Source: the human T2T-CHM13v2.0 reference genome, Homo sapiens. Taken from it: DNA of 64,000 bases. Positions 4,562 to 59,678 of this stretch are shown in pieces (positions within the stretch are counted from its first letter, which is position 1; each line of letters starts with the position of its first letter). The position numbers and the translations under genes were made by a program. The DNA is taken from assembly GCF_009914755.1 (NCBI RefSeq), contig NC_060932.1; one strand, 5' to 3'. The notes under the pieces are model-generated. The model made no database searches. It was not told the origin of the DNA and saw only the letters and a program-made list of their open reading frames with translations.

Positions 4562-7500
4562 ATGATGGCACGTCGGGACCCCAAATCTTGGGCCAAGAGA
4601 CTGGTGAGAGCCCAGACCCTCCAGAAGCAGCGGAGGGCCCCAGTTGGGCCAAGGGCTCCCCCGCCCGATGAAGAAGATCCCAGGGTAAGTCTAGCCCTGG
4701 ATCTCTTGGGTATCGGGGTGGGGGTGGGGACGGGGGGAGGGGGTGTCCCACGGTCCTCAGAGACTGGGTTGGATTCCAAAGAGTTCTGTCACCACCAGCC
4801 AGGTTGCTTTTCCCATCCAAGGTGGGCGTGGCTTGGGACCTTCTCCCCGACCCGATAGGTCCCTTGAGAGACTCTTGGGGGCAACCTCCCTTTCTACTTA
4901 GAGTCCTGTGTAGCCACGTTTGGCTGCGTTGTTGACATCGGCTTCACCATCGTGCCCCTTGGAACCTTGAGTCCTTCCTTTCAGAGTTCCTCCGTCACAC
5001 GGGCTTTGCGAGGGAACATCGTATCCGAACTCTCCCAGCACTTAACGGCCCCCATGCCGGTGTCCCCTCTTTGGAATCCTTATTCAGCTCTGAATTCACA
5101 ATCCGTCCCAATGTTGACGTGGGATCGCTGCCTGTGGCTTCAGCTCACTCACTGACATCACTTCCTTTCCACCCACAGCTCAAGTGCAAAAACTGCGGGG
5201 CCTTTGGCCACACGGCCAGAAGTACCAGGTGCCCCATGAAGTGCTGGAAGGCAGCCCTGGTTCCAGCGACCTTGGGGAAAAAGGAAGGGAAGGAAAACCT
5301 GAAACCATGGAAGCCCCGGGTTGAAGCCAACCCGGGGCCCTTGAACAAGGATAAGGGAGAGAAGGAAGAGAGACCAAGGTGAGCAGTGGGAGGGGTTTTC
5401 ACCACTCTTGGGGTACTGCCTCCTAAGGACATGGTGTCTCTGCACCTGCACACCGTGTGCCTTTCCGTCTCCGGGCCAGGGAAGGAACGCTGCAGAGAAA
5501 TAGGCCGGAGCTCCGTGTCCTCCGGGGTTCCACACCCAGGAGCTCCTTGGGCTCTGGGAGATTCAGGGACGGGGAGAGGCGGGGGCGCTTCGTGCAGGTT
5601 CCCCGCCACAGCGGGAAAAGCGATGGAATCCAAATCACAGTCCTTAGTTGGGGAGCCTAGAGGGCCACCTGGAGGATGGGAAGGTTGGCACGTGAGGGAA
5701 GGTGCAGAGGCGGAAAGGGCACCAGATGTCCATTTCTGTATCACAAGACACGGAATGGGGCTGGGCCCCAGACGGGGTTCTCCCTGTCTCCTGGGGAAAA
5801 CCAGGGGGCACGGCCTGACCTTTTTCTGTTCTGCAGGCAACAAGACCCGCAGAGGAAGGCTCTCCTCCACATGTTTTCCGGGAAACCTCCAGAGAAGCCG
5901 CTGCCGAATGGAAAAGGATCCACGGAACCTTCTGATTATCTGAGGGCGAGTGTCACCCCGGGCCCCTGGTCTTTTTCTCCTCTAGGTCACCCTGGTTGAT
6001 TTCCTTTCAGCTTCCCGTCTGCGGGAGGAAATCGGGGAACCCCTCTTTCTTGCCTTCTTGGGGTCAGGGACTCCACGATCCTTCCAGGTCAATTGGATTC
6101 CAGGCGAAGGCATCTGAACATGCCGTATTTCCTGTTGCTTTCTTTCTGTCCAATTATGGCAAGCCTGCCAACAACACGTTCCTAGCGGCATGAGGAAATT
6201 AGTCCCTCAGAGGCCCCAAACGTGGAGAAGGCGAAACCCAGGAACATGCATGTGTTCAGAGAAGACGTCCCGAGTACCCTTGAGCCAGCAACCTGCCTTG
6301 GGAAGGGCATTAGTCCGTTCCACTTCATGGAAGGCTGAGTGGAGGCGCTTTGATCCAGTTAATGCCCAAGACGCGATCTTTTGAACAATGGTGTGCTTAG
6401 ATCAGCTACACATAGCTCGAGAGCGCATCTTTCATGTGTCTTGTCCTGATCAGCACTCAGGTGGAGGGTCTGTCCCTACTTCCAAGGACCGCCTGTCGAT
6501 ACTGTACTAAGAATTTCATGGCGTGTGCACCTTGTCTTTGGATGTGCTTGATTTTCACGTTGGCTCCATGCTGAGGAACTTCTAACCTGTGTTGTTTCCT
6601 CTCTTTCAGGTTGCAAGCGGGCCAATGCCGGTCCACACAACCAGTAAGAGGCCGCGCGTGGACCCTGTCCTCGCTGATGGCTCAGCTACCGAAATGTCTG
6701 GCAGGGGCTCCGTCTTGGCTTCACTGTCTCCCCTCAGAAAAGCCAGCCTGAGCTCCTCCTCAAGTCTTGGACCAAAGGAAAGACAGACAGGGGCTGCGGC
6801 CGACATGCCTCAGCCTGCAGTCAGGCACCAGGGCCGCGAGCCTCTCCTCGTGGTGAAGCCGACACACAGCAGCCCTGAGGGTGGCTGCCGAGAAGTTCCC
6901 CAGGCTGCCTCCAAAACCCACGGCCTGCTCCAGGCCGCCAGACCCCAGGCACAAGACAAACGTCCTGCGGTGACCTCACAGCCCTGCCCGCCAGCCGCCA
7001 CACACAGCTTGGGCCTCGGCTCCAATCTCAGCTTCGGGCCAGGAGCCAAGAGACCTGCCCAGGCTCCGATTCAGGCTTGCCTGAACTTCCCCAAGAAACC
7101 GAGACTGGGTCCCTTCCAGATCCCCGAAAGCGCCATCCAGGGAGGTGAGCTGGGGGCCCCGGAGAATCTCCAACCTCCGCCAGCCGCAACCGAACTTGGA
7201 CCAAGTACGTCGCCCCAGATGGGCAGGAGGACACCGGCCCAGGTGCCCAGCGTCGAACGGCAGCCTCCGCACAGCAGACCTTGCCTGCCTACTGCCCAGG
7301 CCTGCACCATGTCCCATCACTCAGCGGCCAGCCATGATGGGGCCCAGCCTCTCAGAGTGCTCTTCCGGAGACTGGAAAACGGACGCTGGAGCTCCAGCCT
7401 CCTGGCGGCCCCCTCATTTCACTCTCCTGAGAAGCCGGGAGCCTTTCTCGCTCAGAGCCCTCATGTGTCAGAGAAGTCTGAGGCTCCCTGTGTTCGTGTC

Positions 7501-7572
7501 CCACCGAGCGTCCTCTATGAGGACCTTCAGGTTTCCTCCTCCTCAGAGGACAGCGATTCTGACCTGGAGTGA
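4562..7572 (+). CDS. FAM90A: FAM90A family protein, copy 1 (464 aa, N-terminal CCHC zinc knuckle)
   Basis: Coding exons 4562-4684, 5179-5378, 5837-5945 and 6610-7572 total 1395 nt with an open frame. Starts MMARRDPKSWAKRLVRAQ, contains CKNCGAFGHTARSTRC (C-x2-C-x4-H-x6-C), ends SSSSEDSDSDLE. Introns are GT-AG, GT-AG and GC-AG. The paralogue number cannot be assigned from sequence alone. Confidence 0.93.
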
Positions 7573-9130
7573 GACTGCACGTGGGGAGCGTTGCTTGCAC
7601 CACGAGTCCCCATTTGGCTCAACCGCCGATGCCAAGTGTGTGGTTCCAGTTGCGACGTCCCCCCGTGAAGTGGCTTCCGGATGTGCGAAGGAACCAGGCA
7701 GAGTTTCACTGGCCAAATAGACCCCAGCAAAGCTGAAGTTAACTCCCACATTTGGGATGTACTTCAGAGGTAAAACATTCATCCCGTCTTCTTTCCGGAT
7801 GTCTGACACCATGGTTCTCCCCCTGATCCTAAGAGTAGCTGAGGCAGAGACTCACTGAAAGATCTAGGCGGGGATATCCCATCATGCACAGGCTCTCTCC
7901 ATTCTCTGACCTGGGAACAACTCTCAGCATGATTCCACATCTTGGAGGCCTCGGAACTCAGCGGGATTTTCTGAGACACACCAACTGGCTGCTCCCTTTC
8001 CGCCGCTGTTGAGGGTCGTTATCTTGATTATCCAGATCAACTAGAAAGTATCCGTATCCAGAATGAATAAGATCAACTCTCTGCTCCTCTGACAGCAGAA
8101 GGAGCAGGACCGTAAGGAACCAAAGAGCGTGGAAGGAAACGATGTGACAGGAAAGCTCAGAGAACGGCCACAGGGGGTCGTCAGCAGGCCTTCCAACCTG
8201 AATCATGAATAATTAATGAAGCGCAAATCAAAGTGGACTCGAGTTTCAGCAGGAGCAATTCATCCAACGGGAGATCGCCGGAGGGCCAACAAGATTGAGT
8301 GACTGGGAGCCGGGTGCAGTGTCAAAGGGGACGCGACTGGTTCCAAAGCTCGAGAAGACCATGGGGTCACTTGGGCTACATGAGAAAACGCCCCAGTGTG
8401 CTGGTTCATCATTCCGACTCCTGCCTGTCTCTTCCCGTCCAAGGAACATGGACCCTAAGTCGTGCAGGTGCGGATGACCATGGGCAGAATTAGGGGCCGT
8501 GGCACAAAAGTTCACCGACACGGGAGTTCCACAGAAGGTGCGGTGGATCTTCGCAAATCCAGAGACATGGCAATGGGACCCAGGGAATTAGAGCCTCACA
8601 GGCGTCCGGGAGACTTTTCAGGCATAATGCCTGGAGTCGCAAGACGAGCTGAAAAAGGAGCCAGGCACTGAAGGACAAAGCGTTGTTGACTTTCCTCATC
8701 TGTGTTTCCCAGTGCGGTCCAATTCACGGTGGTTTCCAAGCGCCTCCTGGGGGAGAAAACACATGAGGGTGCGGTCAGGGTTCTCTGCTGACAGACTTAC
8801 CTTGGGGAAGAAAGAGAAGCTCTGAAGATGGATCATGGCCGTGACTGCATGTCAAGGAGAGTCTCCTTGATGACAGTGAGGCCTACGTCGAGATAGACAA
8901 AATGTGGTCCAATTAAAAGGTGTCTATTTTACCACATTTTTTAAAACAAAACAAAAGAAAACAACAAAAAAGATGGAAAAGAAGACAGGGGTACAGGCAC
9001 CAGTGTTACATGTCTGACGGGGAACATCTATTGTTCAAAGCTTGCAGCTGTACAAGTAGGTTTTAGAATGTCTGTCAGCAGTGGACATGATCTTAGAGTG
9101 GGCTGTGCAGATAGACCTTTCCAGGTCATG

Positions 9131-9220
9131 TAATTGGATTAAGTTAATTGCAATTAAGGTACAGGTAACTGATTAGGTTAGGGTACGTTCCATGTCAGGT
9201 GACCAGAGGCAGTATAAAAG
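9131..9220 (+). promoter_or_regulatory. Putative FAM90A promoter copy 2 (DUX4-like motifs plus TATA)
   Basis: Same motif block as 3321-3410 at offset 5810. Confidence 0.65.
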
Positions 9221-10371
9221 GCAGCCTGGAAAGTGGAGGTCCCTCTCTGCCCCTTCCTCCGTCGTCCTGGATGCTGCATCGCTTCCAGCCGGGCTGCTGC
9301 AGCACCTGCCCATCTCAGCGCCAGCCTGGGAAAGAAAGTAGACGTGTAATTTCAGGTTAGTTTCGCTGAACAATTGTTTGTTTCACGCAATCCCTGAGGG
9401 GTTTTTGCGGGGGGTGTGGGGGAGGAAGAGACAAAGGAGGCCGAAAGAAACCGATCACACTGGGGCTTGCTGGTGGGGTAGGATGTGTTCTCGTTACTAG
9501 TAATTCTTGGAACAGAAAACGAGAAAACATACCCGTCTCCACGTGTGGGATAAGACCAAGATGGGAATGCGAAAAGAAATGTACTGCAGCATGCTGAATT
9601 GGTGGGTAAATGGAAAAAGGACTTTGGAAAAAAGGGGGTTTTGCCCTTCAGCCGTGTAAGACGTCGATACGATACGGCACTTCTTCCCCGTTTGTTCAGA
9701 TGAATTCGTGTGGTGTGCGTAAAATACCAGGAAAATAAATAAAGAGGGGCTGGAGCTAAAGCCAAAAGATAGAACAAGAAAGACCATCACCTGCTAGTGC
9801 GGTAGAGAGGAAGGTAACTTCTCTGTATGAATTTGTGTTTGGAAGTTGCCTAATGAAACGGCAAGAGTGGCGATTCAAGTTGTCACAGGAAGCTTTCCTT
9901 ATCCCTGACTTCAAGCAGACCTGCCAAAGGGTGGCACACGCCATGCCCTGTGTCTTCGATCATTCTGTCCGTCAAGGGAGATAGAATCACCGTGTCTTCT
10001 ACCGGAGTGAATCGTGAGAGACCTAAGTCCAGTCTCCAGAATCAGTTGTTTGTTTGGGGTTGAAAGCTCAACCCCCCATACCTAGGCCACGGGCCCTGTG
10101 GCAGGTGGGGTTTACTCTTGGACTAGGTAGTCATGGCAGAGGAACACACAATATCCGAGGATGCGCGCAGCACATTGTGTTCTACAGATTTGACCGACTG
10201 GTGGTGAGGTCTCCTCATGACCACACAGGCAGGGAGTTAGCAGGTGGCTTCCTGTGGGTGTGTGAATATCCAACGTGCTTAACCATCGACATGTGTGTGT
10301 TTGTGTGTGTTTCAGGTGGCCCAACAGTCCACCCCTGAAAAAGGCGGTCATAAAACCCCCAGGAGACGAAG

Positions 10372-13300
10372 ATGATGGCACGTCGGGACCCCACATCTTG
10401 GGCCAAGAGACTGGTGAGAGCCCAGACCCTCCAGAAGCAGCGGAGGGCCCCAGTTGGGCCAAGGGCTCCCCCGCCCGATGAAGAAGATCCCAGGGTAAGT
10501 CTAGCCCTGGATCTCTTGGGTATCGGGGTGGGGGTGGGGACGGGGGGAGGGGGTGTCCCACGGTCCTCAGAGACTGGGTTGGATTCCAAAGAGTTCTGTC
10601 ACCACCAGCCAGGTTGCTTTTCCCATCCAAGGTGGGCGTGCCTTGGGACCTTCTCCCCGGCCCGATAGGTCCCTTGAGAGACTCTTGGGGGCAACCTCCC
10701 TTTCTACTTAGAGTCCTGTGTAGCCACGTTTGGCTGCGTTGTTGACATCGGCTTCACCATCGTGCCCCTTGGAACCTTGAGTCCTTCCTTTCAGAGTTCC
10801 TCCGTCACACGGGCTTTGCGAGGGAACATCGTATCCGAACTCTCCCAGCACTTAACGGCCCCCATGCCGGTGTCCCCTCTTTGGAATCCTTATTCAGCTC
10901 TGAATTCACAATCCGTCCCAATGTTGACGTGGGATCGCTGCCTGTGGCTTCAGCTCACTCACTGACATCACTTCCTTTCCACCCACAGCTCAAGTGCAAA
11001 AACTGCGGGGCCTTTGGCCACACGGCCAGAAGTACCAGGTGCCCCATGAAGTGCTGGAAGGCAGCCCTGGTTCCAGCGACCTTGGGGAAAAAGGAAGGGA
11101 AGGAAAACCTGAAACCATGGAAGCCCCGGGTTGAAGCCAACCCGGGGCCCTTGAACAAGGATAAGGGAGAGAAGGAAGAGAGACCAAGGTGAGCAGTGGG
11201 AGGGGTTTTCACCACTCTTGGGGTACTGCCTCCTAAGGACATGGTGTCTCTGCACCTGCACACCGTGTGCCTTTCCGTCTCCGGGCCAGGGAAGGAACGC
11301 TGCAGAGAAATAGGCCGGAGCTCCGTGTCCTCCGGGGTTCCACACCCAGGAGCTCCTTGGGCTCTGGGAGATTCAGGGACGGGGAGAGGCGGGGGCGCTT
11401 CGTGCAGGTTCCCCGCCACAGCGGGAAAAGCGATGGAATCCAAATCACAGTCCTTAGTTGGGGAGCCTAGAGGGCCACCTGGAGGATGGGAAGGTTGGCA
11501 CGTGAGGGAAGGTGCAGAGGCGGAAAGGGCACCAGATGTCCATTTCTGTATCACAAGACACGGAATGGGGCTGGGCCCCAGACGGGGTTCTCCCTGTCTC
11601 CTGGGGAAAACCAGGGGGCACGGCCTGACCTTTTTCTGTTCTGCAGGCAACAAGACCCGCAGAGGAAGGCTCTCCTCCACATGTTTTCCGGGAAACCTCC
11701 AGAGAAGCCGCTGCCGAATGGAAAAGGATCCACGGAACCTTCTGATTATCTGAGGGCGAGTGTCACCCCGGGCCCCTGGTCTTTTTCTCCTCTAGGTCAC
11801 CCTGGTTGATTTCCTTTCAGCTTCCCGTCTGCGGGAGGAAATCGGGGAACCCCTCTTTCTTGCCTTCTTGGGGTCAGGGACTCCACGATCCTTCCAGGTC
11901 AATTGGATTCCAGGCGAAGGCATCTGAACATGCCGTATTTCCTGTTGCTTTCTTTCTGTCCAATTATGGCAAGCCTGCCAACAACACGTTCCTAGCGGCA
12001 TGAGGAAATTAGTCCCTCAGAGGCCCCAAACGTGGAGAAGGCGAAACCCAGGAACATGCATGTGTTCAGAGAAGACGTCCCGAGTACCCTTGAGCCAGCA
12101 ACCTGCCTTGGGAAGGGCATTAGTCCGTTCCACTTCATGGAAGGCTGAGTGGAGGCGCTTTGATCCAGTTAATGCCCAAGACGCGATCTTTTGAACAATG
12201 GTGTGCTTAGATCAGCTACACATAGCTCGAGAGCGCATCTTTCATGTGTCTTGTCCTGATCAGCACTCAGGTGGAGGGTCTGTCCCTACTTCCAAGGACC
12301 GCCTGTCGATACTGTACTAAGAATTTCATGGCGTGTGCACCTTGTCTTTGGATGTGCTTGATTTTCACGTTGGCTCCATGCTGAGGAACTTCTAACCTGT
12401 GTTGTTTCCTCTCTTTCAGGTTGCAAGCGGGCCAATGCCGGTCCACACAACCAGTAAGAGGCCGCGCGTGGACCCTGTCCTCGCTGATGGCTCAGCTACC
12501 GAAATGTCTGGCAGGGGCTCCGTCTTGGCTTCACTGTCTCCCCTCAGAAAAGCCAGCCTGAGCACCTCCTCAAGTCTTGGACCAAAGGAAAGACAGACAG
12601 GGGCTGCGGCCGACATGCCTCAGCCTGCAGTCAGGCACCAGGGCCGCGAGCCTCTCCTCGTGGTGAAGCCGACACACAGCAGCCCTGAGGGTGGCTGCCG
12701 AGAAGTTCCCCAGGCTGCCTCCAAAACCCACGGCCTGCTCCAGGCCGCCAGACCCCAGGCACAAGACAAACGTCCTGCGGTGACCTCACAGCCCTGCCCG
12801 CCAGCCGCCACACACAGCTTGGGCCTAGGCTCCAATCTCAGCTTCGGGCCAGGAGCCAAGAGACCTGCCCAGGCTCCGATTCAGGCTTGCCTGAACTTCC
12901 CCAAGAAACCGAGACTGGGTCCCTTCCAGATCCCCGAAAGCGCCATCCAGGGAGGTGAGCTGGGGGCCCCGGAGAATCTCCAACCTCCGCCAGCCGCAAC
13001 CGAACTTGGACCAAGTACGTCGCCCCAGATGGGCAGGAGGACACCGGCCCAGGTGCCCAGCGTCGAACGGCAGCCTCCGCACAGCACACCTTGCCTGCCT
13101 ACTGCCCAGGCCTGCACCATGTCCCATCACTCAGCGGCCAGCCATGATGGGGCCCAGCCTCTCAGAGTGCTCTTCCGGAGACTGGAAAACGGACGCTGGA
13201 GCTCCAGCCTCCTGGCGGCCCCCTCATTTCACTCTCCTGAGAAGCCGGGAGCCTTCCTCGCTCAGAGCCCTCATGTGTCAGAGAAGTCTGAGGCTCCCTG

Positions 13301-13382
13301 TGTTCGTGTCCCACCGAGCGTCCTCTATGAGGACCTTCAGGTTTCCTCCTCCTCAGAGGACAGCGATTCTGACCTGGAGTGA
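10372..13382 (+). CDS. FAM90A: FAM90A family protein, copy 2 (464 aa)
   Basis: Exons 10372-10494, 10989-11188, 11647-11755 and 12420-13382. Differs from copy 1 by K8T and two substitutions to Thr in the last exon. Confidence 0.93.
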
Positions 13383-13922
13383 GACTGCAGGTGGCAGGGG
13401 CTCCTTGGCCTCCAGCTCCCGTGACTTGGAGGGGACTGTGGGACTGAGGAGCGCAGAGCAGAGAGCAGACTCTGTGCGGTGACTCCGAAGCTCCCCGGCT
13501 GTGGCGCTTCTGTGGATGTGGGAGCCCAGGCCAGGCAGGGAGCAGATGCAGGGACTCTGCCTCATTGAATTCTGGTGAGGGACGTTGTAGTTGGCGTGGT
13601 TCTCCCGAAACGCGCCAGGAAAAGCTTCCGTGCCAGAGATTCGTTGCCTCAGAAACTGCGTGACGCGCAGGAGTCAGACTTCCGCTGGGACGTCAATAGG
13701 AAACTGGGGAATTACTGTGTATTTGCTCTCTAGATGACTGAATAAGGGAAAAGTTAGGGAACCCTGAGAGGTGCAGCCCTTCCGCTGTGCCCCGCCCTGA
13801 GAGCAGAGTTTCGGACGCTGGGAAGCGTGCTGTGCGAAGCGCTCTCGGGGTCTTTCCTCAGCCTCGAAAACTGGGCTCTGGAATGCCTTTGTACATATGT
13901 GTGTTTAATTGGTTTTGAAGTG

Positions 13923-13928
13923 AATAAA
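13923..13928 (+). terminator. AATAAA poly(A) signal of FAM90A copy 2
   Basis: Canonical hexamer ~540 nt after the stop codon, with a GT-rich downstream element. Confidence 0.75.
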
Positions 13929-13996
13929 ATTCTCAAAAAGATGACATATTGTCTTTTGACTCTCATTCCGTGTTTGTGTGTAACTGATTTTCCAAG

Positions 13997-15028
13997 TGAA
14001 GGGGTGGCCTGCCCCTCCACACCTGTGGGTGTTTCTAGTCGGGTGGGATGAGAGATGGAGAATAGAAATAAGACACAGAGACAAAGTATAGGGAGACAAC
14101 AGTGGGTCCAGGGGACCGGCACTCAGCACACCTAGGACCTGCACCGGCACCGGCCTCTGAGTTCCCTCAGTTTTTATTGATTATGATTATCATTATTACA
14201 GCACAAAGGAATGCAGTAGGGGAGCAGGGTGATAATAAGGGGAAGTTCAACAGCAACAACAAAAACAAACACGTGAGCAAAAGAATCCATATCATTATTA
14301 AGTTCAAGGGAAGGTACTATGCCTGGACGTGCACGTAGGCCAGATTTATGTTTCTCTCCACACAAATATCTCAGCGGAGTAAAGAATAACAAGGCAGCAT
14401 TACTGCCAACATGTCTCGCCTCCCGCCACAGGGCAGCTTTTCTCCGAGCTCAGAGTTGAACAAATGTACGATCGGGCTTTACACCGAGACATTCAGTTCC
14501 CAGGGGCAAGCAGGAGACAGTGGCCTTCCTCCATCTGAACTGCAAGAGGCTTTCCTCTTTGACTAATCCACCTCAGCACAGACCCATTGCGGGTGTCAGG
14601 CTGGGGGACAGTCAGGTCTTTCCCATCCCACGAGGCCATATTTCAGACGGTCACATGGGGAGAAACCTTGGACAATACCCTGCTTTCAAGGGCAGAGGTC
14701 CCTGTGGCTTTCCACGGTGCATTGCGCCCCTGGTTTATTGAGACTAGGGAATGGCAATGACTCCTACCAAGTATACTGCTCGTAAACATTTGGTTAACAA
14801 GGCGCGTCCTGCACAGCCCTAGATCCCTTAAACCTCGATTTTATACAACACAGGTTTTTGTGAGCTCCAAGTTGGGTCAAAGGAAGGGGCTGCGGCAAAG
14901 CTACAAATGATCAACATCTCAGCAAAGCAATTGTTTAAACTACAGGTCTTTTTCAAAATGGAGTCTCTTATGTCTTCCCCTTCTACATAGACACAGTGAC
15001 AGTCTGATCTCTCTTTCTTTACCCTACA
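13997..15028 (-). mobile_element. Solo HERV-K LTR5A-like LTR (array copy)
   Basis: Near-identical to 541-1572. TSD TCCAAG on both sides. Confidence 0.93.
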
Positions 15029-16752
15029 TCCAAGGGCTTGAACATTTCTTGACTTGTTGGCAATCCAAATCGTTACGTCTCCGAAACAGAGTTGACTGAG
15101 GGGACCGCAGGGCTGGGCAGGACCTTTGACTTGCTATACATCCACAGGAGCAAGAAAACCTCAGCCCCACTCTACCAACACGCACCTAGTAAAATTCCGC
15201 CAACGGCATCTCACGCACGCTAACACGTGGGGAGCGTTGCTTGCACCACGAGTCCCCATTTGGCTCAACCGCCGATGCCAAGTGTGTGGTTCCAGTTGCG
15301 ACGGCCCCCCGTGAAGTGGCTTCCGGATGTGCGAAGGAACCAGGCAGAGTTTCACTGGCCAAATAGACCCCAGCAAAGCTGAAGTTAACTCCCACATTTG
15401 GGATGTACTTCAGAGGTAAAACATTCATCCCGTCTTCTTTCCGGATGTCTGACACCATGGTTCTCCCCCTGATCCTAAGAGTAGCTGAGGTAGAGACTCA
15501 CTGAAAGATCTAGGCAGGGATATCCCATCATGCACAGGCTCTCTCCATTCTCTGACCTGGGAACAACTCTCAGCAGGATTCCACATCTAGGAGGCCTCGG
15601 AACTCAGTGGGATTTTCTGAGACACACCAACTGGCTGCTCCCTCTCCGCCGCTGTTGAGGGTCGTTATCTTGATTATCCAGATCACCTAGAAAGTATCCG
15701 TATCCAGAATGAATAAGATCAACTCTCTGCTCCTCTGACAGCAGAGGGAGCAGGACCATAAGGAACCAAAGAGCGTGGAAGGAAACGATGTGACAGGAAA
15801 GCTCAGAGAACGGCCACAGGGGGTCGTCAGCAGGCCTTCCAACCTGAATCATGAATAATTAATGAAGCGCAAATCAAAGGGGACTGGAGTTTCAGCAGGA
15901 GCAATTCATCCAACGGGAGATCGCCGGAGGGCCAACAAGATTGAGAGACTGGGAGCCGGGTGCAGTGTCAAAGGGGACGCGACTGGTTCCAAAGCTCGAG
16001 AAGACCATGGGGTCACTTGGGCTACATGAGAAAACGCCCCAGTGTGCTGGTTCATCATTCCGACTCCTGCCTGTCTCTTCCCGTCCAAGGAACATGGACC
16101 CTAAGTCGTGCAGGTGCGGATGACCATGGGCAGAATTAGGGGCCGTGGCACAAAAGTTCACCGACACGGGAGTTCCACAGAAGGTGCGGTGGATCTTCGC
16201 AAATCCAGAGACATGGCAATGGGACCCAGGGAATTAGAGCCTCACAGGCGTCCGGGAGTCGCAAGACGAGCTGAAAAAGGAGCCAGGCACTGAAGGACAA
16301 AGCGTTGTTGACTTTCCTCATCTGTGTTTCCCAGTGCGGCCCAATTCACGGTGGTTTCCAAGCGCCTCCTGGGGGAGAAAACACATGAGGGTGCGGTCAG
16401 GGTTCTCTGCTGACAGACTTACCTTGGGGAAGAAAGAGAAGCTCTGAAGATGGATCATGGCCGTGACTGCATGTCAAGGAGAGTCTCCTTGATGACACTG
16501 AGGCCTACGTCGAGAGAGACAAAATGTGGTCCAATTAAAAGGTGTCTATTTTACCACATTTTTTAAAACGAAACAAAACAAAACAACAAAAAAGATGGAA
16601 AAGAAGACAGGGGTACAGGCACCAGTGTTACATGTCTGACGGGGAACATCTATTGTTCAAAGCTTGCAGCTGTACAAGTAGGTTTTAGAATGTCTGTCAG
16701 CAGTGGACAGGATCTTAGAGTGGGCTGTGCAGATAGACCTTTCCAGGTCATG

Positions 16753-16842: not shown

Positions 16843-17993
16843 GCAGCCTGGAAAGTGGAGGTCCCTCTCCGCCCCTTCCTCCGTCGTTCTGGATGCTGCA
16901 TCGCTTCCAGCGGGGCTGCTGCAGCACCTGCCCATCTCAGCGCCAGCCTGGGAAAGAAAGTAGACGTGTAATTTCAGGTTAGTTTCGCTGAACAATTGTT
17001 TCTTTCACGCAATCCCTGAGGGGTATTTGCGGGGGGTGTGGGGGAGGAAGAGACAAAGGAGGCCGAAAGAAACCGATCACACTGGGGCTTGCTGGTGGGG
17101 TAGGATGTGTTCTCGTTACTAGTAATTCTTGGAACAGAAAACGAGAAAACATATCCGTCTCCACGTGTGGGAGAAGACCAAGATGGGAATGGGAAAAGAA
17201 ATGTACTGCAGCATGCTGAGTTGGTGGGTAAATGGAAAAAGGACTTTGGAAAAAAGGGTGGTTGGCCCTTGAGCCGTGTAAGACGTCGATACGATATGGC
17301 ACTTCTTCCCCGTTTGTTCAGATGAATTCGTGTGGTGTGCGTAAAATACCAGGAAAATAAATAAAGAGGGGCTGGAGCTAAAGCCAAAAGATAGAACAGG
17401 AAAGACCATCACCTGCTAGTGCGGTAGAGAGGAAGGTAACTTCTCTGTATGAATTTGTGTTTGGAAGTTGCCTAATGAAATGGCAAGAGTAGCGATTCAA
17501 GTTGTCACAGGAAGCATCCCTTATCCCTGACTTCAAGCAGACCTGCCAAAGGGTGGCACACGCCATGCCCTGTGTCTTCGATCATTCTGTCCGTCAAGGG
17601 AGATAGAATCACCGTGTCTTCTACCGGAGTGAATCGTGAGAGACCTAAGTCCAGTCTCCAGAATCAGTTGTTTGTTTGGGGTTGAAAGCTCAACCCCCCA
17701 TACCTAGGCCACGGGCCCTGTGGCAGGTGGGGTTTACTCTTGGACTAGGTAGTCATGGCAGAGGAACACACAATATCCGAGGATGCGCGCAGCACATTGT
17801 GTTCTACAGATTTGACCGACTGGTGGTGAGGTCTCCTCATGACCACACAGGCAGGGAGTTAGCAGGTGGCTTCCTGTGGGTGTGTGAATATCCAACGTGC
17901 TTAACCATCGACATGTGTGTGTTTGTGTGTGTTTCAGGTGGCCCAACAGTCCACCCCTGAAAAAGGCGGTCATAAAACCCCCAGGAGACGAAG

Positions 17994-21004: not shown

Positions 21005-21542
21005 GACTGCAGGTGGCAGGGGCTCCTTGGCCTCCAGCTCCCGTGACTTGGAGGGGACTGTGGGACTGAGGAGCGCAGAGCAGAGAGCACACTCTGCGCT
21101 GACTTCGATGCTCCCCGGCTGTGGCGCTTCTGTGGATGTGGGAGCCCAGGCCAGGCAGAGAACAGATGCAGGGACTCTGCCTCATTGAATTCTGGTGAGG
21201 GACATTGTATTTCGCATGGGTCTCCGGAAACGCACCAGGAAAAGCTTCCGCGTCAGTGATTCTTTGCGTCAGAAACTGCGTGATGCGCTGGAGTCAGACT
21301 TCCGCTGGGACGTCAATAGGAAACTGGGGAATTACTGTGTATTTGCTCTCTAGATGACTGAATAAGGGAAAAGTTAGGGAACCCTGAGAGGTGCAGCCCT
21401 TCCTCTGTGCTCCGCCCTGAGAGCAGTGTTTCGGACGCTGGGAAGCGTGCTGTGCAAAGTGCTCTCGGGGTCTTTCCTCAGCCTCGAAAACTGGGCTCTG
21501 GAATGCCTTTGTAAATATGTGTGTTGAATTTGTTTTGAAGTG

Positions 21543-21548
21543 AATAAA
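21543..21548 (+). terminator. AATAAA poly(A) signal of FAM90A copy 3
   Basis: Same position as in the other units. Confidence 0.72.
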
Positions 21549-21616
21549 ATTCTCAAAAAGATGACATATTGTCTTTTGACTCTCATTCCGTGTTTGTGTT
21601 TAACTGATTTTCCAAG

Positions 21617-22648
21617 TGAAGGGGTGGCCTGCCCCTCCACACCTGTGGGTGTTTCTAGTCGGGTGGGATGAGAGACGGAGAAAAGAAATAAGACACAGAG
21701 ACAAAGTATAGGGAGACAAAAGTGGGTCCAGGGGACCGGCACTCAGCACACCTAGGACCTGCACCGGCACCGGCCTCTGAGTTCCCTCATTTTTAATTGA
21801 TTATGATTTTCATTATTTCAGCAAAAAGGAATGTAGTAGGAGAGCAGGGTGATAATAAAGAGAAGGTCAACCAAAAAAACATGTGAGCAAAGCAATCTAT
21901 ATCATAATTAAGTTCAAGGGAAGGTACTATGCCTGGACGTGCACGTAGGCCAGATTTATGTTTCTCTCCACACAAACATCTCAGCGGAGTAAAGAATAAC
22001 AAGGCAGCATTACTGCCAACATGTCTCGCCTCGCGCCACAGGGCAGCTTTTCTCCTAGCTCAGAGTTGAACAAATGTACGATCGGATTTTACACCGAGAC
22101 ATTCAGCTCCCAGGGGCGAGCAGGAGACAGTGGCCTTCCTCCATCTCAACTACAAGAGGCTTTCCTCTTTGACTAATCCACCTCAGCACAGACGCTTTAC
22201 CGGTGTCAGGCTAGGGGACAGTCAGGTCTTTTTTATCCCACAAGGCCATATTTCAGAGTATCGCATCGAGAGAAACCTTGGACAATGCCCTACTTTCAAG
22301 GGCAGACGTCCCTGCAGCTTTCCACGGTGCATTGTGCCCCTGGTTTATTGAGACTAGAGAATGGCCACGACTTTTACCAAGTATACGGCTTGTAAACATT
22401 TGGTTAACAAGGCACGTCCTGCACAGCCCTAGATCCCTTAAGCCTTGATTTTATACAACACAGGTTTTTGTGAGCTCCAAGTTGGGTCAAAGCGGCTGGG
22501 GCAAAGTGCCTGGGGCAAAGCTACAAATGAACAACATCTCAGCAAAGCAATTGTTTAAAGTACAGGTCTTTTCCAAAATGGAGTCTCTTATGTCTTCCCT
22601 TTCGACATAGACACAGTGACAGTCTGATCTCTCTTTCTTTTCCCTACA
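21617..22648 (-). mobile_element. Solo HERV-K LTR5A-like LTR (diverged terminal copy)
   Basis: Same termini and TCCAAG TSD as the other two copies, so the same ancestral insertion. It carries many more substitutions and indels than those copies. Confidence 0.92.
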
Positions 22649-25600
22649 TCCAAGGGCTTGAACATTTCTTGACTTGTTAGCAATCCAAATCGTTATGTCT
22701 CCGAAACAGAGTTGACTGAGGGGACCGCACGGCTGGGCAGGACCTTTGACTTCGTATACATCCACAGGAGAAAGAGAACCTCAGCCCCACTCTACCAACA
22801 CGCACCTAGTAAAATTCCGCCAACTGAATCTCACGCACGCTAACACGTGGGGAGCGTTGCTTGCACCGCGAGTCCCCATTTGGCTCAACCGCCGATGCCA
22901 AGTGTGTGGTTCCGGTTGCGACGGCCCCCCGTGAAGTGGCTTCCGGATGTGCGAATGAACCAGGCAGAGTTTCACTGACCAAATAGTCCCCAGCAAAGCT
23001 GTAGTTAACTCCCAGATTTGGGATGTACTTCAGAGGTAAAACATTCATCCCATCTTCTTTCCGGATGTCTGACACCGGGCCTTTCCATGGTTCTCCCACT
23101 GATCCTAAGAGTAGCTGAGGTAGAGACTCACTGAAAGATCTAGGCAGGGATATCTCATCATGCACAGACTCTCTCTATTCTCTGACCTGGGAACAACTCT
23201 GAGCAGGATTCCACATCTAGGAGGCCTCGGAACTGAGCGGTATTTTCTGAGACACACTGAATGGCTGCTCCCTTTCCGCCGCTGTTGAGGGTCGTTATCT
23301 TGATTATCCAGATCACCTAGAAAGTATCCGTATCCAGAATCAATAAGATCTACTCTCTGCTCCTCTGACAGCAGAAGCAGCAGGACCACAATGAACCAAA
23401 GAGCGTGGAAGGAAACGATGTGACCGGAAAGCTCAGAGAACGGCCACAGGGAGTCGTAAGCAGGCCTTCCAAACTGAATCATGAATAATTAATGAAGCGC
23501 AAATCAAAGGGGACTCGAGTTTCAGCAGGTGCAATTCATCCAAAGGGAGATCGCCGGAGGGCCAACAAGATTGAGAAACTGGGAGTCGGGTGCAGTGTCA
23601 AGGGGGACGCGACTGGTTCCAAAGCTCGAGAAGACCATGGGGTCACTTGGGCTACATGAGAAAATGCCCCAGTGTGCTGGTTCATCATTCCGACTCCTGC
23701 CTGTCTCTTCCCGTCCAAGGAACATGGACCCTAACTCGTGCAGTTCCAGATGACTATGGGCAGAATTAGGGGCCGTGGCCCAAAAGTTCACCGACATGGG
23801 GGTTCCACAGAAGGTGAGGTGGATCTTTGCAAATCCAGAGAAATGACAATAGGACCCAGGGAATTAGAGCCTCACGGCGTCCGGGAGACTTTTCAGGTAT
23901 AATGTCTGGTGTCGCAAGACGAGCTGAAAAGGGAGCCAGGCACTGAAAGACAAAGCGGTGTTGACTTTCTTCATCTGTGTTTCCCAAAGCAGTCCAATTC
24001 ACTTTGGTAGAATTCATGTATTTATTTTCCGTTGGCTTGTAGTTGCAAACTTTTGATGTTATTGATTTTTGGTTGGAGAGTTTCGGTTTGAAAAAGTAGA
24101 TATTCTGAATATGGAGGTTGTCCAAGATTGTATCTCAAGGTGAGTCTACTTGATTCCAGCGAACCATACTTTGACATATAATACATATGTTTTAATTATA
24201 TTTTGTCTGTTTTAAAACAGCTTAAAAAATCACTTCGTGGAAAATGTCAGTTAGATACACCAATGTTAACTTTCTCATCACATGTCCAGAGGCACTGTAA
24301 AATTCATTCTAGAATGCAAAATTCCCAGCCACTTCTACGTGGAACTTTCTGCAGAATGGGATTGTATCCAGTTTTCAGGGGGCGCAGGTGTGGTACGAGC
24401 TGGTCCTTGGTTTCCTGCTGAAGTTGGAATCCTGCAGATTGCTTAGGGGCGGTTTCCACCTGTCCCTTCTTTCCAGGTCATCACTAACCTTTCCTGATCC
24501 CCCATGGGGACTCAGAACTTATCTAGAGTCACAGGCCCACCTGGGATGCTGCCCTTGAGCCTCTGTGCTGTCCATGATGGTTCCATGCCACTGATCTGCT
24601 GGGACACATTCTGCAGAGGGATGGGCTTGCATGAGCTGTCCCTGCCTTTCTGAAAATCACAGAGATTTCTGGTGTCTGAAGCCACATAGAAATATCTGTG
24701 GAGTCTCGGGAAGGCCAGGGATGCCATTCACAGGCTGCTGTTCTTCCTCTTAATGGCAGCAAGAGTGATTTCTGAGTTTCCTAATTGACTTCGAAATAAT
24801 TTTGTTGATTTTGTTGTGACAAAGACCACTCCTCTTTCTGTGGCATCCAGTTCACCTGTAGGGTTTTTTGGGATTATGTGGAAACTCTTGCATTTTTCCA
24901 GAGCCTCAATTCATCCTGGATGTTCTCAGGAATGCACTAGCTGATCCCTGCCTTGGTGGCATCTTGAAACATTGAGGGAGGCCCCTTAGGTCCATGAGGC
25001 ACAAGGAGGTCCATCAGGAATTGAGGGGGCATGTGTCTGCCCATCTGTAGCTGGAACTTCCATTTGCCTTCAGAATGCAGGTTCTTCCTGAACTAATAAA
25101 TTATCTTCATCTTGGTGTAAGTAGCCACAATATAATAATTCATAGTAACTCTATTAATAAAAATAACTGAATATCAACAATGAAGGTAATAATGACAATG
25201 TTAATTATTATAATATTAATAGTAAAAATAAAACAAAGGCAATATAGATTACGGATTCCCCTAAGTGAAGGACAATGTCCAGATATAGGGACACATGTGT
25301 CGTTTGCACTCAGAGTCAAATGAAACGTGTTCCTCAAAGGCAAAGGACAAGCAGCATAAGGAAAACACAACGTTCATGGATGATCACATGGGCTACCTTG
25401 GAACTCATGTGGAAAGACTGCAGGCAAAGTGTATCTGGTACTGGGACTGCTCACCAGCCAGCCCCCACCCACCTTCATGAGGTAGGACAGCAGGATAATG
25501 GGGAAGGGGTCCATGCAAGGGATGCAAGGCTCGTGTCACACCTGATTCAAAGAAGCACTGCTTCTGACAGATGTTTATCTCCTAACACTGTGTCACCTCT

Positions 25601-51195: not shown

Positions 51196-54100
51196 AAATA
51201 CATACATACATACATACATGCATACATACATACGTATGTACATACTTTTGAAAAACGTCTATACAGCTTGGATCTTCATTCCTGATAAGCCAAGGAACCT
51301 GGAGAAACACCAGAATTCTGTCCCTCTGAGAATGCCGGACAGGTTTACCTTCATCACCATAAAATTTTGGAACAAATGTGGTAACTGCAGGTTCTCTCCA
51401 CAATGAGTAACTGAAAATTGAGGCAGTATTTCAGATCCTAAAAAACTGATGAAGTAATTCGCCACACATTTGGGTTGTTTTTGCCTTTTCCTACTATGAA
51501 GATTGCTAATAGGAAGAATAGTGTACAAGTATCTGTTTGATTCCCTGCTTTTAGAATCCTTTGCTTGTTTGTGTGTTTGTCTGTTCCTTCTTGAGACAGG
51601 ATGTCACTCCAGTCAGCCAGGATTTTCCAGTGTGTAATTTTTGTTGTTTCCTTTTGTCAAGTTTTAGAAGTTGTTATTTTATTTCTATTGAATTTTAAGG
51701 CATTTTTAGATATGTATTAAAACATTATCACACAGGCCGTGTGTTACATTGCAATTATTTTCATCATTCCTTTAAGAAACAAAAGATTTAGCTTAGATAT
51801 CTTCCAATTTGTGAATCTTTTCTGATTTTGACTTTTTTAAAAATGCTGTCATATACAAGAAACCCTTGGATTAAAAATGCCATGAATATTTCTCTTTTCT
51901 TGCAGTCATAACTTCGGTGTATGTCATCAATTAGTCTCTGGTTTATAGCATGTTTTCTTGAAAGTGTTTCACAATGTATTTTGGGCATTGAGAATTTCAT
52001 CAAACTTAAGTGAAGGTTTCGACATTCACTATTGAAGGGAATAGTCCTATTTGATGCCTTATTATTTGCATATCTTGCTTCCACAAGAACATTTCACGCA
52101 AAGACTTGTCTTCTCCCCAATGCCAGATCATTACAACATGACATGGAATCAACTGGCCAAAAATGGGAAGGTTATCTCTGGAATGTCTATTTGACTCCAT
52201 TGATCACTTCATCTTAATTAAGACAAAAAATATGCTGTGTTAATTACCTCACATTGTTGCAAATTCTCAAGTCAGAAAATGTAGTTATAACTTCTTGGCA
52301 TTTAGTCACTGAAAGAATGATCTTATCTCACAGATGCACATGCTTGGAAGTACTTCTCAAGGCATACACACACATCCAGAAACAAACACACAAATACACT
52401 CATACACACAAACTGTTTAATATGTACACAATTGTTAAATAGCATTGTTATACATGAAATAAGGCAAATGTTTAGCTACTATCCTAACCTGGTTCCACTC
52501 CTAACATATTTGCTCATAATACTGACAAGTAAATCTGCTTCAACCCTTCCATAGTCACAATGTAAGCAGTGTCCATTAAATTCTCTGAGGAATGCAAGAG
52601 GATACAACCTAAGACAAAAAACTTAATTGAATCCTGATATTTCATTAGTAAATAGGGTAATTGATGGATAAATGTAATGGTCTCGGTGGGTGGACAGTAG
52701 TTAAATAAGGGCTGATGCAGCAAGATAATTATTTAAAGGCGTTTGAAAGAAATTGAAACAGGAGAGTGGATGTATTCAGCTAAAATAAAATCCGGAAGCC
52801 CTGAAATAAATCTCATTTTGCGGGTAAAAAAATGGCATTGGAGGAGATTCTGGGTCAATCATGAAGCTGTGAAAGTTGCATCTTGGAAGCAGGATCCCTG
52901 TAATGAAACGAGACTTGTTTATCAGAGGTGGTCTTTCAGAGGAAAAGATTTTGAAGAATGGCCCCTTCCTTTTGTGTATTTGACGATTAGATTTCATGCC
53001 AAATTTCGGGTTTTAAACTCTATTTAAACGTTAAAAGAATTAACTAAAATGGCAAAAAAACAAGAAATTTTTTGATTAGGAATCGTCAAATATTCATTTC
53101 TTGTTAGATACAGTTACCAAACACGACCTACCGGAGAGAAACAATTGTGGAGAATGGCCCCTTATTTTTGTATATTTGCTGATTAGATTTCATAGTCCAT
53201 TTCTCATTAGGTACAGAGATCAAAGTTGAACTACCCAAGAGTAGAGATATCCAGGACAGAACTCAGGGCACGGTAGAACCACAGAATCTTGGGTGAAATA
53301 TTGCTCAAGAACAAAAATGTGCTTATTCAGCGTGTTTCTGTGTGACATGTGTGGAAACTAAAGTGCAATGAGCATGACACGAAGACAGAATATCAATTCG
53401 GCTCACCTCAAATCAGTTGTGAGCATTAAAGAAAACCAATTCCTAGGTCCCGCTTAAAGAGATAAGACCATCCAACAACCTGTGTGAAGCCACCGCATCT
53501 GGCTTGCTCATGATTCTGGGGATCATTCTCCAGAAAATGGTGGCTCCTTTCTCCCTGTGGAGCATCTTTCTAAGCAGTGCCCTTTCTTCCCCCAGGACAC
53601 TTTACATGAGGTGCAGGAAGCCTTCTGATGGAGCACACCTGGCCCATGAAAAGACAAGGGAAAGAAAAAGGGCCAAAGGTCACAGTCCTCTCATTACATC
53701 ATCATCCTTAAAATCATCCTAATTTCATGAGCCCTGAAGACAGGGCTGTTTCTTTACACCTAGAGGCCTTGGCGCCGGGCCTCAATTCTTCCCTGTTCCT
53801 TACTGTCTAAGACATTTTGGGAAAATCACTAGAGCCAGGACCTTCATTCCTGGTAAGCCAGAGAGCCGAAAGACACACCCAAATTCTGTCCCTCTTAGTT
53901 CAGGGAACAGGTCTACTTTCGTCAGCATTACAATTTTTGCACCAAATGTGCTAACTGCAATTCCACCATACAATGCATAACTGGAAATGGAGGGAACATC
54001 TCAGATCATGAACAATCGATGAGAGAATCCAGGAGATACACGGCTTATTTTTGCCTTTTCCCTGTGAAACAAGGGCAAGTATTAAAAACTTTATGCTGTC

Positions 54101-54908
54101 TTCTATTTCACTGCCTGCTTTTAAACGTCTCCGATGTATTCTTCTTGAGAAAGGGCCTCACTACTGTCACCTGGGCTTTTCTAAGGTATAATTTTCCTTG
54201 TTTGCTTTTGTCAAAATTAGAACATTTTATTTCATATCTATGAAATGTTGAGCCATTATCACATACGTATGGAAATAGTATCACCAATGCTGTGTGATAA
54301 GTTGTTTTTATTTTGGTCAATTCTTTAATAAACAAAAGCTTATAGTTGGGATACCTTCTGATTTCTCAAGGTTTTTGTTTCATGTTTTCTTAAACTGCCG
54401 CCGCACGTCCGAAACCACTCACTATACAATGTCAGGACCATCTCTCTTTTCTGGCACACATAAATTTGGGGAATGTCATCAATTAGTCTCTCGGTGATTG
54501 CATGATTTCCCCAAAGTCTTTCACAGTCTACTTTGTGCAATGAGTATCTCTTCAAACTTCAGTGCATATTTCTACCATTTGATGCTTTATTATTTGGCAA
54601 CCTAGCTTCCACAAGAGCATGTCAGGCAAAGAGTTCTCTTGTTCTCCACTGGAAGGTAATTTCATTCGCACAGAGAATCAATAGGCTGAACGTAGAAAGG
54701 TTATCGCTGGAAGCTCTGTTTCATTCCACGGATCTCTCCTTTCTTATTAAAGAAAAAAATACGCTGTGCTAAATACCATACTTCATTGACTAATCTCAGG
54801 TCAGAAAGCACATTTCCGATTTCTTGTCCTTCTGTCGCTGAGAGGATGATGATAGCTGCCAAAAGTACATACTTGGAAGTTCATCCCAGCACGAGCACAC
54901 ACACACAT

Positions 54909-54954
<46 letters not shown>

Positions 54955-55246
54955 ACACAGGGTTTCATAGGTAAAGATTTCTTCCCTGACATTCTTTTAC
55001 CTAAAATAAGGCAACTGTGCGGCCACTGCCCAAACCCGGTTACACTCATATTATATGTGCCTATCACCCTGAGGAGTAATTTGATTCAGGTGTTCTAGAA
55101 GTCATGATGTGGGCTGTGTCTGTTGAATTCCCAGCGATGCAAGGGGACACACCCTGTGACTCATTCCTTAATTGAGTGCTGATATTTGATTGTTTTATCG
55201 CGCACCTGATGGGTGGGTGGGGTGTTCGCGGTTGGTGGGGGTGAGT

Positions 55247-55256
55247 TCTATAAGGG
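55247..55256 (+). promoter_or_regulatory. TATA-like element upstream of USP17L
   Basis: TCTATAAGGG ~115 nt upstream of the ATG, preceded by GT-boxes GGGTGGGTGGGG. Repeated at ~59975-59984. Confidence 0.45.
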
Positions 55257-55365
55257 ATGATGCGGCCAGAGAGCTCGTCATTTGAAGACTCTCTCGGAAG
55301 AGATAGCGTCTTGCTGCAACCTGCGGTCCCAGCAGAAAAACCTTGTGATCCTTGTTGCGGGCGAC

Positions 55366-56958
55366 ATGGGGGACGACTCACTCTACTTGGGAGGTGAGTG
55401 GCAGTTCAACCACTTTTCAAAACTCACATCTTCTCGGCCAGATGCAGCTTTTGCTGAAATCCAGCGGACTTCTCTCCCTGAGAAGTCACCACTCTCATCT
55501 GAGACCCGTGTCGACCTCTGTGATGATTTGGCTCCTGTGGCAAGACAGCTCGCTCCCAGGGAGAAGCTTCCTCTGAGTAGCAGGAGACCTGCTGCGGTGG
55601 GGGCTGGGCTCCAGAATATGGGAAATACCTGCTACGAGAACGCTTCCCTGCAGTGCCTGACATACACACTGCCCCTTGCCAACTACATGCTGTCCCGGGA
55701 GCACTCTCAAACATGTCAGCGTCCCAAGTGCTGCATGCTCTGTACTATGCAAGCTCACATCACATGGGCCCTCCACAGTCCTGGCCATGTCATCCAGCCC
55801 TCACAGGCATTGGCTGCTGGCTTCCATAGAGGCAAGCAGGAAGATGTCCATGAATTTCTCATGTTCACTGTGGATGCCATGAAAAAGGCATGCCTTCCCG
55901 GCCACAAGCAGGTAGATCATCACTGCAAGGACACCACCCTCATCCACCAAATATTTGGAGGCTGCTGGAGATCTCAAATCAAGTGTCTCCACTGCCACGG
56001 GATTTCAGACACTTTTGACCCTTACCTGGACATCGCCCTGGATATCCAGGCAGCTCAGAGTGTCAAGCAAGCTTTGGAACAGTTGGTGAAGCCCGAAGAA
56101 CTCAATGGAGAGAATGCCTATCATTGCGGTCTTTGTCTCCAGAGGGCGCCGGCCTCCAACACGTTAACTTTACACACTTCTGCCAAGGTCCTCATCCTTG
56201 TCTTGAAGAGATTCTCCGATGTCGCAGGCAACAAACTTGCCAAGAATGTGCAATATCCTGAGTGCCTTGACATGCAGCCATACATGTCTCAGCAGAACAC
56301 AGGACCTCTTGTCTATGTCCTCTATGCTGTGCTGGTCCACGCTGGGTGGAGTTGTCACGACGGACATTACTTCTCCTATGTCAAAGCTCAAGAAGTCCAG
56401 TGGTATAAAATGGATGATGCCGAGGTCACTGTCTGTAGCATCATTTCTGTCCTGAGTCAACAGGCCTATGTCCTCTTTTACATCCAGAAGAGTGAATGGG
56501 AAAGACACAGTGAGAGTGTGTCAAGAGGCAGGGAACCAAGAGCCCTCGGCGCTGAAGACACAGACAGGCGAGCAAAGCAAGGAGAGCTCAAGAGAGACCA
56601 CCCCTGCCTCCAGGCACCCGAGTTGGACGAGCACTTGGTGGAAAGAGCCACTCAGGAAAGCACCTTAGACCACTGGAAATTCCTGCAAGAGCAAAACAAA
56701 ACGAAGCCTGAGTTCAACGTCGGAAAAGTCGAAGGTACCCTGCCTCCCAACGCACTTGTGATTCATCAATCAAAATACAAGTGTGGGATGAAAAACCATC
56801 ATCCTGAACAGCAAAGCTCCCTGCTAAACCTCTCTTCGACGACCCGGACAGATCAGGAGTCCATGAACACTGGCACACTCGCTTCTCTGCAAGGGAGGAC
56901 CAGGAGAGCCAAAGGGAAGAACAAACACAGCAAGAGGGCTCTGCTTGTGTGCCAGTGA
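55366..56958 (+). CDS. USP17L1: Ubiquitin-specific peptidase 17-like (530 aa, intronless; catalytic C89, H334 and D350/351 present)
   Basis: Starts [19 protein letters not shown]. Cys box [10 protein letters not shown] (TGC at 55630), His box [11 protein letters not shown] (CAT at 56365), WYKMDD, C-terminus [11 protein letters not shown]. The family call is firm; the paralogue is from recalled sequence and gene order. Confidence 0.92.

Positions 56959-59638: not shown

Positions 59639-59678
<40 letters not shown>

What the first reader, a model, noticed from the sequence alone, without database searches (positions are those of the whole stretch)
7570..7590. FAM90A unit missing 1836 bp: 3'UTR, poly(A) signal and LTR removed 7 nt after the stop codon
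Seen: copy 1 reads TGAGACTGCA|CGTGGGGAGCG. Normal units read TGAGACTGCA-GGTGGCAGG (13380-) and TAACA-CGTGGGGAGCG (15221-). The absent segment equals 13390-15225 (1836 bp), which gives a 5810-bp period. The junction has a CA microhomology inside the imperfect repeat CAGGTGG/CACGTGG. The CDS is untouched, but the AATAAA and the whole LTR are gone. Inference: this is a microhomology-mediated deletion or a 5810-bp tandem duplication. It would give this copy a new 3'UTR reading to ATTAAA at 8912 or AATAAA at 9734, the latter lying past the next unit's promoter.
Basis: partly seen in the sequence, partly recalled or inferred. Interest (0 to 1): 0.72.

Follow-up and report, generated by a model that had tools for sequence, protein, structure and literature searches.

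The report
Short FAM90A repeat unit, tail deleted
One of about 50 tandem FAM90A gene copies in the CHM13 human genome lacks a 1,836-base piece holding its normal RNA end signal and a retroviral remnant; this is most likely an ordinary small deletion that would leave that one copy poorly expressed, with probably little effect beside dozens of intact copies.

Summary
The FAM90A3 unit lacks 1,836 bp (13390-15225 in the next unit) starting 5-7 nt after the stop codon, at a CA microhomology. The junction occurs once in CHM13; 1 of 49 tandem periods is short. A 5,810-bp duplication is rejected: the two units share no exclusive variant and an AU test gives p=0.0005, so deletion is favoured. The lost piece holds the 562-nt 3'UTR with its AATAAA, a 1,032-bp solo ERVK LTR (6-bp target duplication) and the annotated 3' end of antisense RNAs. 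The published length of the matching hg18 array fits six full units, so the short unit is probably not fixed in humans. Likeliest outcome (inferred, untested): read-through into the next unit, splicing, nonsense-mediated decay. All 33 tandem ORFs tested are open, so the dosage effect should be small. An ordinary structural variant in a known copy-number-variable array; not found in my searches; raw reads and expression untested.

The parts
4562..7572 (+). FAM90A3 coding sequence (unit A1), 4 exons, open 464-aa frame, GC-AG third intron
   Evidence: RefSeq row in the finding
7570..7590 (+). Junction: stop codon, 7 nt of the old 3'UTR ending in the CA microhomology (7578-7579), then sequence that normally lies 1,836 bp further on
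   Evidence: single match in CHM13
13390..15225 (+). The 1,836-bp segment as it stands in the next unit (A2); absent from unit A1
13383..13944 (+). Normal 3'UTR, 562 nt, AATAAA at 13923-13928 with U/GU-rich downstream element; end inferred from the 1,525-nt last exon listed for FAM90A7P
13997..15028 (-). Solo ERVK (HML-2 type, LTR5A by published label) LTR, 1,032 bp, TG...CA ends, 6-bp target duplication at 13991-13996 and 15029-15034
   Evidence: label
14087..14087 (-). Annotated 3' end of antisense RNAs inside the LTR (ZNF705G alternative transcript; LINC00965 end at 631 is the same position one unit type over; FAM66B end maps to 14104)
   Evidence: RefSeq rows
8912..8917 (+). ATTAAA, candidate replacement signal, weak downstream context
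9734..9743 (+). Two overlapping AATAAA, candidate replacement signal, inside the predicted first intron region of the next unit
9170..9219 (+). Predicted promoter of the next unit: DUX4-like 11-mer (9170-9180, 37 of 37 copies) and TATAAAA (9213-9219, 33 of 37)
   Evidence: motif recalled, binding not tested
9356..10315 (+). Predicted first intron of a tandem unit: GT donor at 9356 and AG acceptor ending at 10315, both kept in 37 of 37 copies
10372..13382 (+). Unit A2: open 464-aa FAM90A frame with no RefSeq row
8746..8746 (-). Acceptor equivalent to the annotated antisense terminal exon start (16368); here it has lost its LTR end

Best explanation
One FAM90A repeat unit in CHM13 lacks 1,836 bp that in all other copies examined hold the 3'UTR, the poly(A) signal and a solo ERVK LTR; it most likely arose by a single microhomology-mediated deletion, and its transcript would probably run on into the next unit and be degraded. 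Shown: the junction, its uniqueness in CHM13, the contents of the lost piece, the non-sister relation of the two flanking units, the weak context of the substitute hexamers. Inferred origin: end joining or a replication template switch between the imperfect 7-nt repeats; the event may also have removed whole units (hg18 fits six units, CHM13 has four). Inferred effect: RNA from the A1 promoter passes the stop at 7572, meets no strong signal, uses the donor at 9356 and the exons of A2, and ends at A2's signal near 13944. That puts exon junctions 1.8 kb or more behind the stop, the textbook trigger of nonsense-mediated decay. Antisense RNAs that normally end in the LTR would find no AATAAA/ATTAAA before 1283 and would cross FAM90A3. 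Net: one of 53 tandem copies is weakened.
For: Unique junction with microhomology. 48 of 49 periods full length. A1 is nearest A0 (24 differences) and A3 (29), not A2 (43); clade A0+A1+A3 has support 100/99 and no site is exclusive to A1+A2; p-AU 0.0005 against A1+A2. The singletons including FAM90A1 keep the segment, so presence is ancestral. hg18 array chr8:7,098,335-7,146,182 (PMC2588610 Table 2) leaves residuals of 9-221 bp with six full units and 1,701-2,057 bp with five full plus one short. Normal signal ranks 3-6 of 86 for downstream U content, substitutes rank 81 and 85. Donor 9356 and acceptor 10315 kept in 37 of 37. No antisense hexamer from 8746 down to 1283.
Against: No raw reads and no second haplotype sequence were seen. 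The hg18 argument rests on published array ends defined by another method, and that table gives the unit as 7.1 kb, at odds with its own 47.8 kb / 6.2 copies. The A1-A2 differences sit mostly upstream (36 of 43); over the coding half A1 is 7 differences from each of A0, A2 and A3, and conversion is reported here (PMC13216315), so the tree could be distorted. The promoter and 5' exons are predicted; two further predicted donors are not kept in the singletons. ATTAAA 8912 is followed by a CA and a run of six T, so some use is possible. The U-content ranking is a crude measure. No expression data.
Confidence: 0.62

Rival explanations
1. Same deletion, but the copy gains a stable new 3'UTR (about 1.36 kb to ATTAAA 8912, or 2.2 kb to AATAAA 9734) and makes normal protein under different control.
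For: The frame is open; ATTAAA 8912 precedes any strong predicted donor, and has a CA 18-19 nt behind it and a T6 run; loss of a strong signal often unmasks weaker ones (established knowledge).
Against: Downstream U fraction 0.15 and 0.13 against 0.48 at the normal site; no upstream UGUA for 8912; the 9734 site lies where normal transcripts are predicted to pass.
Confidence: 0.15
2. A 5,810-bp tandem duplication made A1 and A2 from one unit; later gene conversion erased their sister relation.
For: The junction sequence alone is equally compatible; conversion is reported in this region (PMC13216315); the coding halves do not discriminate.
Against: 0 sites exclusive to A1+A2, 13 private to A2, p-AU 0.0005.
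Confidence: 0.07
3. Assembly error or a change that arose in the CHM13 cell line.
For: Seen once, in one assembly, inside a high-identity repeat; hg18 appears to lack it.
Against: Collapses usually drop whole units, not a sub-unit piece with microhomology (inference); A1 and A2 differ at 43 sites, enough to anchor long reads; PMC8099727 reports largely uniform ONT and HiFi coverage and BAC support across the locus (figure legend only, not this site).
Confidence: 0.08
4. The deletion is real but has no effect because this copy is never transcribed (methylated array).
For: PMC8099727 describes 151-163-kb methylated LTR-rich blocks in the 8p23.1 duplications (whether this array is inside one was not checked); RefSeq gives the copy no UTRs.
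Against: A1 keeps the DUX4-like motif and TATA box (3360, 3403); FAM90A1 probes rise 5.5- and 11.8-fold in the DUX4 over-expression tables of PMC5323140.
Confidence: 0.08

Closest known systems
FAM90A tandem arrays of 8p23.1 (7.6-7.7-kb LTR5A-containing macrosatellite)
   Same: Same unit, same arrays (PMC2588610 Table 2); copy number varies widely, 32 and 20 copies on two HG002 haplotypes against 16 in GRCh38 (PMC9668749).
   Different: Described variation is in whole units or an exon-1 deletion of FAM90A23 (PMC12882164); this is a sub-unit loss of the tail with the frame intact.
Microhomology-mediated deletions (MMEJ, FoSTeS/MMBIR class)
   Same: Non-homologous breakpoints with 2 nt flush identity inside a 6-of-7 imperfect repeat, no inserted bases.
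   Different: Nothing in kind; it sits in an array where unequal crossover of whole units is the usual change.
HERV-K(HML-2) solo LTRs (LTR5A)
   Same: About 1 kb, TG...CA, 6-bp target duplication, same 3' end found before a primer-binding-like motif at 21 places in CHM13.
   Different: Here the LTR is lost by a deletion that begins 607 bp before it and ends 197 bp after it, not by LTR-LTR recombination or precise excision, and no empty site is restored.
Poly(A)-signal loss alleles with read-through (e.g. EPCAM 3' deletions reading into MSH2; recalled, not looked up)
   Same: Loss of a gene's 3' end signal predicted to send transcription into the downstream gene.
   Different: The frame is whole, the downstream gene is a near-identical paralogue among more than 50, and no effect has been shown.

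Membership tests
Microhomology-mediated deletion | Short identity at non-homologous breakpoints, no insertion | tested here: met
   chance rates
Microhomology-mediated deletion | Lost segment is the ancestral state and flanks are not sister copies | tested here: met
   36 of 36 other copies keep it; AU test
Microhomology-mediated deletion | Junction present in raw reads / other genomes | not testable with these tools
   only the CHM13 assembly is held
5,810-bp tandem duplication | The two copies are each other's closest relatives | tested here: not met
HML-2 solo LTR | About 1 kb with TG...CA ends and a short target-site duplication | tested here: met
   1,032 bp, 6-bp duplication
HML-2 solo LTR | Same LTR end flanks proviruses at a primer-binding site; dispersed family | tested here: met
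   21 matches, control 0 (motif recalled); 1,371 first-look candidates, 40 scored
LTR5A subgroup | Subgroup-specific insertions / RepeatMasker label | not tested
   label taken from PMC2588610 (array B equivalent) and PMC4255768
Nonsense-mediated decay target | Exon junction more than 50-55 nt behind the stop in the real transcript | tested here: inconclusive
   predicted junction 1,783 nt behind the stop; no RNA data
Polymorphic structural variant | Other haplotypes lack it | tested here: inconclusive
   hg18 array length fits six full units; indirect

The most novel reading that the evidence does not exclude
The short unit segregates in people and is a natural LTR knock-out inside the array: in DUX4-positive 8-cell-stage cells it yields a junction-tagged two-gene FAM90A read-through RNA and an 8-kb antisense RNA across FAM90A3, and changes the activity of the next copy, showing that the LTR5A in every unit acts as the terminator and insulator that keeps the array's transcription units apart.
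Probability: 0.15. Interest if true: 0.55.

Novelty: new member of a known kind. Interest (0 to 1): 0.3.

Why it matters
If transcribed, the junction is a unique tag in a family whose copies are otherwise almost indistinguishable, and the unit is a ready-made test of what the LTR5A in each FAM90A repeat does (antisense terminator, promoter or silencer). It also warns that RefSeq's protein-coding FAM90A3 model on CHM13 rests on a copy without its own 3' end. With 33 of 33 tested tandem frames open and haplotype copy numbers ranging from 16 to over 50, an effect on the organism is unlikely.

Tried and rejected
5,810-bp duplication: rejected by distances, shared variants and AU test. LTR-LTR recombination or precise LTR excision: rejected, the breakpoints lie 607 bp and 197 bp outside the LTR. 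G-quadruplex at the breakpoints: no four-run G3 motif on either strand within about 70 nt of either break. A three-exon 5'UTR model (9700-9813, 9919-10104): not kept, its donors are lost in the 4 singletons. The annotated antisense exon 16858-16947 has a canonical acceptor but no GT at its donor end, so I do not lean on it. Bosch et al. 2007, the family's founding paper, is not held, so I could not check whether it lists a short unit. Nine paper searches turned up no description of this junction; one search returned nothing on FAM90A in embryos. A search of PMC13216315 supplements for the junction coordinate gave only donor/acceptor rows that break at chr8:7,013,577 (2 of 8 rows seen), which I cannot read as carrier counts. 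No protein structure or family searches were run, as the frame is unchanged.

Full report
Observation. The window holds the end of one FAM90A array: units A0 (FAM90A15, mostly upstream), A1 (FAM90A3), A2 (unannotated) and A3 (FAM90A11). Self-comparison shows offsets of 5,810, 7,646 and 13,456. After the A1 stop (7570-7572) come 7 nt matching 13383-13389 and then sequence matching 15226 onward, so 13390-15225 (1,836 bp) is missing, with a 2-nt CA microhomology inside a 6-of-7 imperfect repeat. The junction 24-mer has one match in CHM13. Motif searches give 53 tandem units in four arrays (4, 10, 28, 11) and four singletons including FAM90A1 on chr12; 48 of 49 periods are 7,622-7,654 bp and one is 5,810. 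I held 37 of the 57 copies as sequence (3 in the window, 34 fetched; 14 units of array C and 6 of array D were not obtained). All 36 other than A1 keep the segment and its AATAAA. Two bases of microhomology arise in 16% of random joins, a 6-of-7 window in 0.9%.

What was lost. First, the 3'UTR: the last exon of FAM90A7P is listed as 1,525 nt (PMC5088589 Supplemental Table 12, 2 of 8 FAM90A rows seen), which in A2 ends at 13944, 16 nt behind AATAAA 13923-13928 and before a U/GU-rich tract. Second, a 1,032-bp LTR on the minus strand (13997-15028) with TG...CA ends and a 6-bp target duplication. It belongs to a large dispersed family (1,371 candidates, 40 scored) and its 3' end stands before a primer-binding-like motif at 21 places, control 0 (motif recalled). 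Papers label the LTR of these arrays LTR5A (PMC2588610 table passage; PMC4255768 section 19); PMC3228705 gives about 1,004 bp for LTR5A (passages). Third, the annotated ends of antisense RNAs: LINC00965 and a ZNF705G transcript end at the position 14087, 90 nt inside the LTR's 3' end, and FAM66B at the equivalent of 14104.

Deletion or duplication. Over the shared 5,810 bp, A1 differs from A0 at 24 sites, A3 at 29 and A2 at 43. In 33 of 53 tandem units no site is exclusive to A1+A2, 13 are private to A2, 6 are exclusive to A0+A1+A3, and that clade has support 100/99; forcing A1+A2 together is rejected (p-AU 0.0005). Against this, the signal is mostly upstream: over the coding half A1 is 7 differences from each neighbour, and gene conversion is reported for the region (PMC13216315 passages). 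Deletion remains the simplest reading, and could include whole units.

Real and fixed? Raw reads were not available. The matching hg18 array (chr8:7,098,335-7,146,182, identified by its 28.9-kb distance to the 4.7-kb USP17L array against 29.1 kb here) fits six full units within 9-221 bp, and five full plus one short only with 1.7-2.1 kb left over; the table's unit size of 7.1 kb conflicts with its own length and copy number. Two CHM1 rows start 7,646 bp apart, which does not test the A1-A2 interval. One supplement file of PMC5088589 and two of PMC13216315 could not be read and may bear on this. So the short unit is probably a variant rather than a fixed human trait. PMC5088589 places an inversion breakpoint in this distal array in GRCh37 (passages).

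Likely consequence (inferred). Every copy carries a DUX4-like 11-mer (37 of 37; motif recalled; 77 of 2,000 shuffled units contain one) 43 nt before TATAAAA (33 of 37), a GT donor at 9356 and an acceptor at 10315 (both 37 of 37); FAM90A1 is listed as induced 5.5- and 11.8-fold in DUX4 over-expression tables (PMC5323140 passages). I therefore expect RNA from A1 to run into A2, splice and end at A2's signal, with junctions 1.8 kb or more behind the stop: by the established 50-55-nt rule a decay substrate. ATTAAA 8912 has a CA and a T6 run behind it, so partial use is not excluded. On the minus strand the acceptor at 8746 is intact and no AATAAA/ATTAAA occurs until 1283, so antisense RNA entering there would cross FAM90A3. 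None of this was tested with RNA data.

Comparison and novelty. The arrays, their LTR5A content and large copy-number range are known. All 33 tandem frames tested are open. Nine searches of the held library (listings and abstracts only unless cited above) found no account of this junction, but Bosch et al. 2007 is not held and SV databases could not be searched. PMC12882164, PMC3942070 and PMC2790694 were seen as passages and add only context. Verdict: a real, cleanly described, probably undescribed member of an ordinary class of structural variant, of modest interest as a copy-specific tag and natural LTR knock-out.

Noticed in passing
window 10372-13382: Unit A2 has an open 464-aa FAM90A frame with intact splice sites but no RefSeq row; its upstream half carries most of 13 private variants.
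   Followed up: partly
window 8626-8733 (and 2816-2923): Natural boundary of the tandem unit: singleton homology starts at 8626 and the array's tail ends at the equivalent of 8733, a 108-bp overlap that may mark how the array first formed; a 24-bp deletion in A0 and A3 lies at this spot.
   Followed up: partly
window 21012-24008: The tail of the last unit is about 7% diverged from the other tandem units and nearer the singletons (81-86 differences) than the tandem copies (103 or more): the array end escapes homogenisation.
   Followed up: partly
L002:1617-2348 (chr8:6,999,416-7,000,147): The array begins inside a truncated, 7%-diverged copy of the LTR, in line with the LTR5A section reported at the beta-defensin CNV boundary.
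   Followed up: partly
window 5946 and equivalents: Third coding intron has a GC donor in all three window copies.
   Followed up: no
L022-L035 (array C) and singletons: 4 of 37 copies have TATGAAA in place of TATAAAA and 8 of 37 a weaker first donor, so promoter strength may differ between copies; three ATG-ATG starts are ATG-ACG.
   Followed up: no
window 16858-16947: Annotated minus-strand ZNF705G exon overlaps the predicted first FAM90A exon on the other strand; its acceptor is canonical but its donor end is not GT.
   Followed up: partly
window 51262-64000: USP17L 4.74-kb array (93% between units) with an older, about 68%-identical internal repeat at offsets 2,568, 7,312 and 12,033.
   Followed up: no
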